Sequence record: AP012535
DNA: 56,224 nt
Direction: 5' to 3' (one strand)
From: Stx2-converting phage Stx2a_WGPS9
Position numbers: made by a program. Every line of letters begins with the position of its first letter. The first letter of the stretch is position 1. Positions 3,001-6,000 of the stretch are shown one piece after another.

Positions 3001-6000
3001 CAGCCAGCAACAGGCCACCCTGCAATGGCATATTGCATGGTGTGCTCCTTATTTATACATAACGAAAAACGCCTCGAGTGAAGCGTTATTGGTATGCGGT
3101 AAAGCCGCACTCAGGCGGCCTTGATAGTCATATCATCTGAATCAAATATTCCTGATGTATCGATATCGGTAATTCTTATTCCTTCGCTACCATCCATTGA
3201 AGGCCATCCTTCCTGACCATTTCCATCATTCCAGTCGAACTCACACACAACACCATATGCATTTAAGTCGCTTGAAATTGCTATAAGCAGAGCATGTTGC
3301 GCCAGCATGATTAATACAGCATTTAATACAGAGCCGTGTTTATTGAGTCGGTATTCAGAGTCTGACCAGAAATTATTAATCTGGTGAAGTTTTTCCTCTG
3401 TCATTACGTCATGGTCGATTTCAATTTCTATTGATGCTTTCCAGTCGTAATCAATGATGTATTTTTTGATGTTTGACATCTGTTCATATCCTCACAGATA
3501 AAAAATCGCCCTCACATTGGAGGGCAAAGAAGATTTCCAATAATCAGAACAAGTCGGCTCCTGTTTAGTTACGAGCGACATTGCTCCGTGTATTCACTCG
3601 TTGGAATGAATACACAGTGCTTATTCGTACTAATAAAATACCCAATTTTCTGTTTCTTGGTTGTGTCCAAAGTTATATTCAATATCTGGTGTTGATGTAT
3701 CAATATTCTTCATACCATCAACAAGAGTTGATACAACAGCCAAATCTTGTTTGATTCTCATTAAATGGTATTTCTTCCGGCGCAATAAACTTTCAATGGC
3801 AAGTTTCTTCGTTGGGAATGCAAAAGATCTTTCTGCATTTTTTGCTACTTTCTTAATTGCATATCTATTTCTCCTTTGTTTCCATTCCTGTAACCACTGA
3901 TTTGGTGCTGGTTTAAAATTAACAATCCAATGCGCAGGAACCAACCATGCATAATGCTCTGTCTGATGAAAAGCTATATATTGAAGTGCGAATATTTTTA
4001 TCCCATCTTCTTCAACTGTCGCCTGGAATCTCCAGAAAACAGGCATTCCATCATGTTCAGTTTCTGATTCAGGAAAAGGTACGCTCCATGATTTTGTCAT
4101 ATATCACCTCAAATAAGTGGTTTGCTGCCTAATTTCATTTTCTGGCGACCAACACAAGTCATCTTGCTGTCAGTTGTTTGGATTTCCGGTAGCCTGCCGC
4201 GTAAAGAGCTACATTTGGAAGACATACACCAGTTTCTGGTTGCTTATGTCCAAACTCATTCGCGTACACAATGGCCGCTCGCTCCAGATTGCGTCTGTAT
4301 TCTTCCTGCTGCCAGATCACGTCCTGTGCCATGAACTTAATTGGCTTAGCGTCTTCTATGCGATCAGGCGTTTCGTGAGTACCTTTAGCCTGAATCTGCG
4401 CTCTACTTAGAGTTGGGCGGTGTAATACTTCTGAACTTATTGCTTCTTCGCGGGCCAGTACGCCGTTAGCTAATGCCTTTGCCTTTAAACGCTCACGACG
4501 ACGAGAACGAGAATTGCCTTTGAACTGAGTTCTGCGTGTCATATGGAACCTCCTGATGAACTTTGGCGGTGAATACAGCCGGGCGACTAACTCCGGTCGC
4601 GTAATCATTGCAAAGCGCCTCCGCCGAGAAGGTTAGCTTCTGCATTCACCCCAAAGTTCACTTTGGTTATTGCGCTTTGTCAGCGCCGTAGATTCATATT
4701 CGAATCGTTGTATATTCACCGCCCTGGTGAGTAGTGCGTCCTGCTGATGGGTGAACTTTATCGGAATGATAAATTAATGGCAATAGCAAAATGATAAATT
4801 CTCTTGGTTTTCAAATATCGTATTGATTCTTATGGTGTTTTATTTTGTTGTAGGAATTCGACAGGATAAATAAAGAGATTTGAGGGAGATCTGGATTGCG
4901 TTGTTTAGCAAGTTGTATCTATTTATTTTTCAACAAATACAATTGGTTATGTGTTTTTAGGTGTGGGGATCGTGAGGCAAAGAAAACCCGGCGCTGAGGC
5001 CGGGTGGGGAATTTCACTTATTACTGTTCGTTTCCATGGGATTGGCCAAGAAATCAAAATAAGGCAGAGTGAACCTACCAAGGTTTGACATGAGGATAAT
5101 TTGCTCGGCATATGTTTTTATATAGGGATATGCCATATTGGGAGCAATGGACCTTACCTCATATGATTTTGCCATTTCATGAGAAAAATCATCTTCTGAC
5201 CGGAAGTCAAAGTCGTATGTGATGTCCATCTCAAGCCTGCCTTCAATAGTTACGGAGGCAAAATATCTCACTCTAAATAGCTTTGAATCCTTCACATTAG
5301 TGTAAAGTTCATTATTTAGATTAACGGTTGTTTTTATGGCTTTTTTTGCTGTTGAATCGCCTTCTAGCCGTGTCATAACCAAGCGTTCAACTTTTTTGCT
5401 AATGAGTTCAATTTTCATGGTAATAATAAGTAATTTCCGTCAGAAGTCATTTCGTCATTCAGGTTGCTAGCCGCTGTGAAACTTGATGACAAGTTACTTA
5501 TCAAAGAAAAAACATTCCGTTTTTCTTTGCATTTGCCATTACCCCTTACTGCGCTGAACAACATTTTTGAAAAGTAAGATTCTGTAGCCTTTTCAGCGAA
5601 ATAAGCAGAAGGTGATGTGACGGCTGACTCACACCGAGCAATGACGCTAGTCATGGCTGTTTCTTCTTCCTCTGCGTCAACTAGGCTCCATTCAATTGCG
5701 CTCATATCTTGAATTAAGATATCTGCAGGAATTCCAAGTCCGTCATGTAGTCTACGGATCATTGAAAGACTTAATGGACGCTTACGATTTAAGACCTCAG
5801 ATACTTTAGATGCTGAGCCAATGTATTGTTTCATATCGGCATAAGAGAGGCCTTGTTGATCCATACGGAACTTGATTGCTTCTATGGGATCTGGCTTGTC
5901 CATAGGGAACTCGCGTGACTCATAGTGCTCGATAAGCAAGCCTAGTAGTTCAAACTCATCAAAATCTTCAGTTCCAGGTTGTAAATCACTAGACGCAAGT

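What the first reader, a model, noticed from the sequence alone, without database searches (positions are those of the whole stretch)
3480..4158. AT-rich orphan gene between ea10 and N, in the position of lambda ral/sieB
A 156-aa ORF with no recognisable family sits in a clearly AT-richer segment than the flanking Red/N genes. It is bracketed by hairpins: a terminator-like GCCCTCCAATGTGAGGGC + T-run on the minus strand near 3504-3535, and an inverted repeat TGTATTCA..TGAATACA near 3588-3615. This slot commonly carries superinfection-exclusion or anti-restriction morons in lambdoid phages.
Basis: inference. Interest (0 to 1): 0.5.

Follow-up and report, generated by a model that had tools for sequence, protein, structure and literature searches.

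The report
Uncharacterised early phage gene after N
The flagged ORF is a real, well-conserved gene already catalogued as HK97 gp45 / 933W L0079; it is a swappable early-gene cassette sitting right after the antiterminator N where lambda keeps ral, and its function is still unknown.

Summary
The window is a 933W/BP-4795-like Shiga-toxin phage. The 156-aa ORF (3630..4100, minus strand) is real. It is 100% identical to 933W L0079 and 99.4% to HK97 gp45, matches PHROG 1636 (unknown function), occurs in 598 of 5426 complete E. coli genomes, and is under purifying selection (dN/dS 0.07-0.17).

It is AT-rich (35.7% GC) and occupies the N-to-ea10 slot that holds orf28-ral in phage 21 and sieB/orf28/ral in lambda.

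Both hairpins exist, but they do not bracket the gene. Both lie 3' of it, inside a ~125-nt element that is 95-100% identical across lambdoid phages, lambda included.

The unique cassette is 3621..4097. It has a ribosome-binding site shared with other cassettes, no promoter of its own was detected, and the protein has no membrane segment. That argues against a SieB-like exclusion moron.

Best reading: a pL-transcribed early accessory protein, small, soluble and basic, acting during lytic growth. Counter-defence is plausible but untested, and ral and this gene occur in tandem in phage phi296.

The parts
3630..4100 (-). CDS of the 156-aa protein (18.6 kDa, pI 9.07). It is 933W L0079 / HK97 gp45 / PHROG 1636.
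   Evidence: ORF listing. PHROG 1636 E 2.7e-112 over the full length. 100% identical to 933W L0079 and 99.4% to HK97 gp45. dN/dS 0.07-0.17. AlphaFold model pLDDT 95.
3621..4097 (-). The unique, exchangeable cassette: the ORF without its ATG, plus 9 nt after the stop codon.
   Evidence: blastn against lambda, 21, DE3, PA18, HK106 and Sf101. Homology with phages that carry other genes in this slot stops at 3620/3621 on one side and at 4098 on the other.
4101..4158 (-). N-to-ORF spacer with Shine-Dalgarno GAGGTG (4105..4110). This translation-initiation region is shared with other cassettes.
   Evidence: Window 4098..4161 is 98.4% identical to the region upstream of orf28 in phage 21/DE3 and Sf101, and it continues into PA18/HK106. 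The last ~20 nt, TTATTTGAGGTGA(G/T)ATATG, were shared by all eight most frequent upstream-sequence variants (70 loci) among 80 E. coli prophage loci, even where the sequence further upstream differs. No terminator-like site lies here.
3583..3620 (-). Long imperfect hairpin (17-nt arms, 4-nt loop) that starts 10 nt after the stop codon. It is the first part of the conserved lambdoid element and marks the cassette junction.
   Evidence: It is nearly invariant in lambda, HK97, Sf101, HK106, HK633 and Salmonella phages. No Rfam family matches it.
3498..3527 (-). Intrinsic-terminator-like stem-loop (GCCCTC-loop-GAGGGC) plus T-run, immediately upstream of ea10. It is the first such site downstream of pL apart from one weak, T-poor match inside N (4228..4240).
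   Evidence: Consensus scan. The same element is annotated as a terminator in the phage 21, HK97 and HK106 records. 99.4% identical to lambda.
4159..4542 (-). Antiterminator N (H-19B/933W type, 127 aa), the gene immediately upstream in the same operon.
   Evidence: Pfam N_peptide E 1.6e-15. PHROG 271. 933W annotation.
4672..4783 (-). nutL (about 4672..4738, with boxB GCGCTGACAAAGCGC) and a pL-like promoter match (4755..4783). This is the inferred source of transcription for N and the 156-aa gene.
   Evidence: Coordinates transferred from the 933W nutL annotation through the blastn offset. The promoter is a consensus match only.
3111..3479 (-). ea10 (DUF2528), the downstream neighbour beyond the terminator.
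   Evidence: Pfam DUF2528 E 2e-47. 933W annotation.

Best explanation
The feature is the HK97 gp45 / 933W L0079 gene. It is a self-contained cassette of about 0.5 kb: a short ribosome-binding site plus one ORF. It sits as the first gene after the antiterminator N in the leftward early (pL) operon of this Stx phage, in the slot that lambda and phage 21 use for orf28-ral.

Shown:
- The gene is real and under purifying selection.
- Its borders are exact mosaic junctions: the start codon on one side and the base of a conserved hairpin on the other.
- It has no detectable promoter of its own.
- Apart from one weak, T-poor match inside N, the first intrinsic-terminator-like site after pL lies downstream of it.
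- The product is a soluble, basic 18.6-kDa alpha/beta protein. The centre (residues 57-130) has pI 10-11 and the ends are acidic.
- The model is confident but has no relative among solved structures.
- It belongs to a stand-alone family found in the early operons of many temperate phages, with structural relatives in diverse other phages.

Inferred:
- It is transcribed from pL together with N. This probably happens before N-dependent read-through is needed, so it would be made very early after infection or induction and would be silent in the repressed prophage.
- It acts in the cytoplasm during lytic growth by binding a nucleic acid or a host protein rather than by catalysis. The only near-universal acidic position (E in the wider family) is Q in this subfamily.
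- The most likely role is a dispensable accessory one: counter-defence or host take-over that helps incoming or replicating phage DNA. My estimate is about 0.3 for counter-defence specifically, and about 0.55 for the broader 'early lytic accessory binder' statement.
For: Identity and conservation:
- establish identity. The gene is in 598 of 5426 E. coli genomes, and the exact protein is on at least 1000 contigs.
- dN/dS is 0.07-0.17, with synonymous sites saturated at about 60% amino-acid identity.

Cassette borders and shared expression signals:
-.
- Roughly 60 of 80 E. coli prophage loci have it directly after an N or Nun protein. These include 933W-type, 21-type and lambda-type N and Nun.
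- With 21-type N the gap is only 8 nt.

Transcription signals:
- No promoter-like site on the coding strand between 4100 and 4750, and no convincing terminator before 3527.
- The terminator is annotated at the same element in phage 21, HK97 and HK106.

Genomic context:
- It is always in the sense direction of an early operon: Pectobacterium, Brenneria, Cronobacter, Rosenbergiella, Marinobacterium, Pseudomaricurvus and others.
- An orphan C5 DNA methyltransferase lies within about 2.5 kb in 6 of about 10 non-enterobacterial contexts.

Protein properties and structure:
- The model has pLDDT 95 and pTM 0.82.
- No PDB relative was found.
- Foldseek against the BFVD library of predicted viral protein structures gave 12 hits with E below 1e-3, all uncharacterised and from diverse phages.
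Against: - No experiment or homology links the family to any function. Every library hit is 'unknown function'.
- Early co-transcription with N rests on consensus scans. These cannot see Rho-dependent terminators or weak or non-sigma-70 promoters.
- The methyltransferase neighbourhood was not compared with a background rate. Such genes are common in early-left operons.
- ral and this gene occur in tandem in phi296, so positional replacement of ral is not evidence of equivalent function.
- A basic surface is equally compatible with a regulatory DNA- or RNA-binding role.
Confidence: 0.55

Rival explanations
1. Ral-like restriction alleviation. The protein is a functional analogue of lambda Ral that blunts type I (or other) restriction of incoming unmodified phage DNA.
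For: - It occupies the orf28-ral slot, with the same ribosome-binding site and the same downstream terminator element.
- Its predicted very early expression suits a factor needed when the DNA enters.
- Distant family members repeatedly lie near orphan DNA cytosine methyltransferases.
Against: - There is no sequence relationship to Ral (PHROG 1055 is hit by phage 21 Ral but not by this protein). It is 156 aa against 66 aa.
- ral and this gene sit side by side in phage phi296. The phi296 paper lists Ral but not this gene among anti-defence functions found by DefenseFinder (PMC12502783).
- It has no structural similarity to any solved anti-restriction protein.
- It is basic, so it is not an Ocr/ArdA-type DNA mimic.
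Confidence: 0.15
2. Developmental or nucleic-acid-binding regulator. This would be a small DNA- or RNA-binding protein that tunes phage early gene expression, the lysis-lysogeny choice, or recombination/replication, like the poorly understood exo-xis-region proteins.
For: - The central region and the 33-residue helix are strongly basic (K+R is 17 of 74 residues, pI 10-11).
- It is consistently placed among regulatory and recombination genes of early operons. Examples: next to a ParB/KorB-like HTH gene in Salmonella NX263-like phages, after NinB/NinG in one contig, and before xis-int in several.
Against: - No HTH or other known DNA-binding motif was found.
- The AP2 / Int-arm-like idea failed in hhalign (probability below 1%).
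- The gene is absent from many otherwise near-identical lambdoid phages (lambda, 21, PA18, HK106). Any regulatory role must therefore be dispensable.
Confidence: 0.2
3. One reading: a prophage-expressed moron that protects the lysogen (SieB-like superinfection exclusion or another defence).
For: - Its base composition is atypical (35.7% GC).
- It lies in a slot that carries sieB in lambda and in Salmonella phage 103203_sal5.
- A terminator follows it.
Against: - No own promoter was detected, and the terminator is the shared lambdoid element.
- It has the same orientation as pL, which is repressed in lysogens.
- It has no transmembrane segment.
- PADLOC gave no meaningful hit.
- Structural relatives occur in many unrelated phages rather than at prophage immunity loci.
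- This window already carries a recognisable defence set elsewhere, at 5014..6355.
Confidence: 0.07
4. A non-functional or spurious ORF in an AT-rich spacer.
For: No function or known domain has been found.
Against: - Full-length homologues at 55-85% identity keep the same length, with 40 invariant residues.
- dN/dS is 0.07-0.17.
- It has a strong Shine-Dalgarno sequence.
- The structure prediction is confident.
Confidence: 0.01

Closest known systems
HK97 gp45 / 933W L0079 / phi24B vb_24B_11c / H-19B ORF (PHROG 1636)
   Same: It is the same gene: 99.4-100% amino-acid identity, the same place after N, and the same downstream terminator element.
   Different: Nothing of substance. All these records call it a hypothetical protein, and no paper in the searchable library mentions it by these names.
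Lambda / phage 21 Ral (restriction alleviation, PHROG 1055) with orf28
   Same: Same slot between N and the conserved hairpin-terminator element, same strand, same operon. Its upstream translation-initiation region matches that of orf28.
   Different: No sequence similarity, 156 aa against 66 aa, and a different PHROG. The two genes coexist in tandem in phi296. Function was not tested.
Lambda SieB (superinfection exclusion B)
   Same: It lies in the same N-to-ral interval of lambda and some P22-like phages.
   Different: In the lambda record and in Salmonella phage 103203_sal5, sieB (annotated there as superinfection exclusion) lies on the strand opposite to N. From prior knowledge, SieB is membrane-associated and expressed from the prophage. 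The 156-aa protein has no hydrophobic segment, no own promoter and no similarity.
VT2-Sakai Sap20-type 83-aa gene (PHROG 2471) of PA18 / HK106
   Same: It is an alternative cassette in exactly the same slot, with the same flanks. It is also of unknown function.
   Different: The sequence is unrelated and about half the size.
Immediate-early anti-restriction proteins such as T7 Ocr (analogy from prior knowledge only)
   Same: It is predicted to be among the first genes transcribed after DNA entry.
   Different: Ocr is a highly acidic DNA mimic, whereas this protein is basic (pI 9.07). It has no structural match to any solved protein.

Membership tests
HK97 gp45 / 933W L0079 family (PHROG 1636) | Full-length sequence match to the family profile and to named members | tested here: met
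   PHROG 1636 E 2.7e-112 over residues 1-156 of 156. 100% identical to 933W L0079 and 99.4% to HK97 gp45.
HK97 gp45 / 933W L0079 family (PHROG 1636) | Synteny: sense orientation in the early-left operon, typically directly after N | tested here: met
   About 60 of 80 E. coli prophage loci have N or Nun directly upstream.
Ral (restriction alleviation) | Sequence homology to Ral (PHROG 1055) | tested here: not met
   Phage 21 Ral hits PHROG 1055 at E 1.7e-49. The 156-aa protein hits only PHROGs 1636, 18686, 37429 and 13631.
Ral (restriction alleviation) | Genomic position between N and the conserved terminator upstream of ea10/cIII | tested here: met
Ral (restriction alleviation) | Alleviates type I restriction or enhances modification | not testable with these tools
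   This needs plating of unmodified phage on restriction-modification hosts.
SieB-type superinfection exclusion | Hydrophobic, membrane-associated protein | tested here: not met
   The maximum 19-residue Kyte-Doolittle mean is 0.56 and GRAVY is -0.59.
SieB-type superinfection exclusion | Sequence homology to SieB | tested here: not met
   No Pfam, PHROG, NCBIfam or PADLOC hit to an exclusion family.
Moron (independent transcription unit inserted between conserved genes) | Atypical base composition relative to the flanks | tested here: met
   35.7% GC against 48-52% for N and bet.
Moron (independent transcription unit inserted between conserved genes) | Own promoter upstream | tested here: not met
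   No sigma-70-like site on the minus strand between the ORF and pL. The upstream 58 nt are a shared ribosome-binding-site region. This is a consensus scan only, so RNA data are needed for certainty.
Moron (independent transcription unit inserted between conserved genes) | Own terminator downstream | tested here: inconclusive
   A terminator follows, but it belongs to an element conserved in phages that lack the gene.
Known anti-phage defence proteins (PADLOC) | Match to a defence-system model | tested here: not met
   Only a chance-level Cas1_II hit (E 0.018, 12 bits).
Any protein of solved structure (including solved anti-defence proteins) | Fold similarity to a PDB entry | tested here: not met
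AP2 / integrase arm-type DNA-binding domain | Profile similarity across the beta-sheet plus helix | tested here: not met
Only the 8-residue F-x-T-x-E-x-A motif aligns.

The most novel reading that the evidence does not exclude
The 156-aa protein is the enterobacterial representative of a phage-wide, structurally unprecedented family. Under this reading it acts as an immediate-early counter-defence factor, co-transcribed and in some phages nearly translationally coupled with the antiterminator N. It would neutralise a host immune system by a mechanism unrelated to any solved anti-defence protein.
Probability: 0.2. Interest if true: 0.65.

Novelty: new member of a known kind. Interest (0 to 1): 0.35.

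Why it matters
The gene is carried by about one in nine complete E. coli genomes, including the 933W-type Stx phages and the laboratory phage HK97, yet it has no assigned function. It is a small, confidently modelled protein with no solved structural relative. It is apparently made together with N at the very start of lytic growth. That makes it a cheap and well-defined candidate for anti-defence or host-take-over screens in a tractable system (HK97 or lambda hybrids). The exact cassette borders also give a clean example of how lambdoid phages swap early accessory genes at a shared ribosome-binding site and a shared hairpin-terminator element. If it has no phenotype, it is simply one more dispensable accessory gene.

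Tried and rejected
1. Family libraries. Pfam, NCBIfam, PADLOC and PDB sequence searches with the protein and with a 47-member profile gave only noise.
2. Structure prediction with only the 20 close homologues gave a poor model (pLDDT 59.5). Adding distant relatives fixed this.
5. Nuclease or other catalytic idea. The only near-universal acidic residue of the wider family is Gln in this subfamily, so catalysis is unlikely.
6. Domain fusions. P0066 (940 aa) and P0080 (444 aa) are low-complexity or repeat artefacts and are not informative.
7. The search for related loci with the broad alignments A3 and A4 failed because no stretch was conserved enough. With A1 it returned only identical E. coli copies or 7 loci.
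8. Literature. Searches for L0079, vb_24B_11c, HK97 gp45, PHROG 1636 and Stk/HK97 found no functional study.
9. Rfam found no family on the hairpins.
10. The idea that the gene is tied to one N specificity was rejected. It follows 933W-type, 21-type and lambda-type N and Nun.
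Full report
**What the window is.** Window 3000-4700 is 100% identical to Stx-converting phage vB_EcoS_ST2-8624, 99.9% to BP-4795 and 99% to 933W. On the minus strand the order is: cI (6492..7196), a three-gene defence-like set, pL/nutL, N (4159..4542), the flagged ORF (3630..4100), ea10/DUF2528 (3111..3479), cIII, kil, gam, bet, and an exo gene cut by an IS629-like element.

**Checking the observation.** The 156-aa ORF is there. A GAGGTG Shine-Dalgarno (4105..4110) lies four bases before its ATG. It is the most AT-rich gene of the region (35.7% GC, GC3 26.8%). N is 48.4%, bet 52.4% and the window 49.9%. The neighbour ea10 is also low at 38.5%. The terminator-like hairpin (3506..3527 plus T-run) and the inverted repeat (17-nt arms, 3583-3599 / 3604-3620) are both real. 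The intergenic RNA folds much better than shuffled controls (z = -4.8). However, both hairpins lie 3' of the ORF, so they do not bracket it. They also do not belong to the AT-rich insert. Window 3440..3620 is 99.4% identical to lambda 33866-34046 and 95-100% identical to the same spot in phage 21, HK97, HK106, HK633, Sf101 and Salmonella P22-like phages. This holds whatever genes flank it. The phage 21, HK97 and HK106 records annotate a terminator there. Rfam has no family for it.

**Identity of the gene.** The protein is 100% identical to 933W L0079 and 99.4% to HK97 gp45. It is phi24B vb_24B_11c, and it matches PHROG 1636 ('unknown function') over its whole length. The gene is in 598 of 5426 complete E. 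coli genomes, with up to four copies, and is always annotated 'hypothetical protein'. The exact protein is on at least 1000 contigs. So it is not an orphan, but it is uncharacterised. Searches for its names found no functional paper. Close homologues (55-85% identity, 156-163 aa, 40 invariant residues) occur in Salmonella, Cronobacter, Pectobacterium, Brenneria, Rosenbergiella and Symbiopectobacterium. Where synonymous sites are not saturated, dN/dS is 0.07-0.17. It is therefore a real, constrained protein-coding gene.

**Anatomy of the cassette.** blastn against phages that carry other genes in the slot shows sharp borders.
- *Downstream border.* Homology resumes at 3620/3621, 9-10 nt after the stop codon, at the base of the long hairpin.
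- *Upstream border.* Homology resumes exactly at the ATG. Window 4098..4161 is 98.4% identical to the sequence preceding orf28 in phage 21/DE3 and Sf101, and it continues into N in PA18 and HK106.

The unique DNA is therefore 3621..4097. The same frame holds different contents in different phages:
- sieB/orf28/ral in lambda;
- orf28-ral in phage 21;
- an 83-aa PHROG 2471 gene in PA18/HK106;
- orf28-ral plus two more genes in Sf101.

I also examined 80 E. coli prophage loci that carry the identical ORF.
- *Upstream neighbour.* It is N or Nun in roughly 60 of them: 933W-type, 21-type or lambda-type N, or HK022 Nun. With 21-type N the gap is only 8 nt.
- *Shared sequence.* All eight most frequent upstream variants, covering 70 of the loci, end in TTATTTGAGGTGA(G/T)ATATG.

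In phage phi296 the gene sits directly after ral. There the motif GAATAA(ACACA)GCACTG occurs on both sides of it, so it looks like an insertion into the start of the conserved element. Ral and this gene are therefore not strict alternatives.

**Expression (inferred).** The consensus scan finds no promoter-like site on the coding strand between the ORF and the pL-like match at 4755..4783. It also finds no convincing terminator between pL and the ORF. The first good one is 3506..3527, just after the ORF. The simplest reading is that the gene is transcribed from pL together with N, probably even before N-mediated read-through. Under that reading it would be silent in the repressed prophage. This rests on pattern scans. 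Rho-dependent terminators and weak promoters cannot be excluded.

**The protein.** It is 18.6 kDa with pI 9.07 and has no hydrophobic segment. The ends are acidic and the centre is very basic (residues 57-130, pI 10-11). Pfam, NCBIfam, PADLOC and PDB sequence searches are empty.

An exhaustive profile search found 87 proteins. These include fragments of the close family and two spurious repeat proteins. Among the rest are many 130-155-aa stand-alone proteins at about 20-25% identity that share hET, K87 and RFAFxTKeeA...RK..QL.HLK motifs. They fall in PHROGs 1636, 13631 and 25384, all of unknown function.

With only the close homologues AlphaFold was poor (pLDDT 59.5). With 85 sequences it became confident (pLDDT 95.0, pTM 0.82). 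The model has:
- three long beta-strands (19-55);
- two short helices;
- a short strand (83-86);
- a 33-residue helix (98-130);
- a conserved extended C-terminal tail.

**Context across the family.** In every locus with interpretable neighbours the gene lies in the sense direction of an early operon. It is found after N (E. coli, Cronobacter), just before xis-int (Pectobacterium, Brenneria, one metagenomic prophage), among recombination genes (Rosenbergiella, Pseudomaricurvus), after NinB/NinG, or heading a small operon with a ParB/KorB-like gene. An orphan C5 DNA methyltransferase lies within about 2.5 kb in six of about ten non-enterobacterial contexts. This hints at an anti-restriction neighbourhood, but I could not compare it with a background rate.

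**Interpretation.** The evidence best supports an exchangeable early accessory gene. It would be expressed with N at the onset of lytic growth and would encode a soluble basic binder.
- A SieB-like or moron reading is disfavoured. There is no promoter, no membrane segment and no defence-model hit, and structural relatives turn up in many unrelated phages.
- A Ral-type function is possible but has no direct support, and the tandem ral-gene arrangement in phi296 weakens it.
- A regulatory nucleic-acid-binding role is a serious rival.
- I put about 0.55 on the general statement, about 0.3 on counter-defence in the broad sense, about 0.15 on Ral-like restriction alleviation specifically, about 0.2 on a regulator, and about 0.07 on prophage-expressed exclusion.

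**Novelty and interest.** The gene has been deposited since the 933W and HK97 genome papers, so the feature itself is known. What is new here is the exact cassette anatomy, the link to a phage-wide family, and a confident model without solved relatives. It is a reasonable candidate for a functional screen, but nothing about it would surprise a specialist. Interest 0.35.

Noticed in passing
window 5014..6355 (minus strand), between pL and cI: A three-gene defence-like set sits where 933W carries stk/L0083/L0084. It comprises a HigB toxin matching PD-Lambda-2_A (E 2.5e-42), a 218-aa HTH protein matching only the first 125 positions of the 402-position PD-Lambda-2_B profile (E 3.8e-50), and a 134-aa protein matching PD-T4-9_C (E 3e-11). 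It looks like a hybrid of two described systems.
   Followed up: partly
window 3495..3620: A non-coding element of about 125 nt (long hairpin plus intrinsic terminator) is 95-100% identical in lambda, 21, HK97, HK106, HK633, Sf101 and Salmonella P22-like phages, regardless of the genes on either side. It serves as a mosaic junction. It has no Rfam family, and it is too invariant to test covariation.
   Followed up: partly
L118 (phage phi296) 2436..3010; compare window 3610..3632: In phi296 the 156-aa gene lies directly after ral and is flanked on both sides by GAATAA(ACACA)GCACTG. This resembles an insertion with a short duplication at the start of the conserved element. Its start codon there is TTG, and the record annotates a shorter ORF.
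   Followed up: partly
window 203..1602: An IS629-like IS3-family element (orfA 1090..1416, orfB 203..1093, with the ALIL frameshift pseudoknot at 1019..1135) interrupts exo. Only a 44-aa N-terminal stub remains (1468..1602), so the Red exonuclease is probably inactive.
   Followed up: no
window 4572..4646: The leader between nutL and N differs from 933W (76 nt here against 112 nt there). BP-4795 and ST2-8624 match the window.
   Followed up: no
window 2993..3051; 15574..15822; 17231..17490; 53171..53345; 55697..55785: Rfam gathering-score hits elsewhere in the window: the lambda cIII thermoregulator, three tRNAs, STnc100 and the anti-sRNA AsxR, a sok antitoxin RNA, and sRNA-Xcc1.
   Followed up: no
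L016-L095 (80 E. coli prophage loci from IMG/VR): The identical 156-aa gene follows N or Nun proteins of several types: 933W-type, 21-type and lambda-type N, a fourth N-like type, and HK022 Nun. Several of the N proteins look like hybrids, with a lambda or 21 N-terminus joined to a different C-terminus. This suggests the 3' end of N is itself a recombination linker.
   Followed up: partly
L097, L098, L109, L110, L111, L113: Distant family members in Pseudomonas, Pantoea, Marinobacterium, Pseudomaricurvus and metagenomic prophages repeatedly lie within about 2.5 kb of an orphan C5 DNA methyltransferase (PF00145). This was not compared with a background rate.
   Followed up: partly
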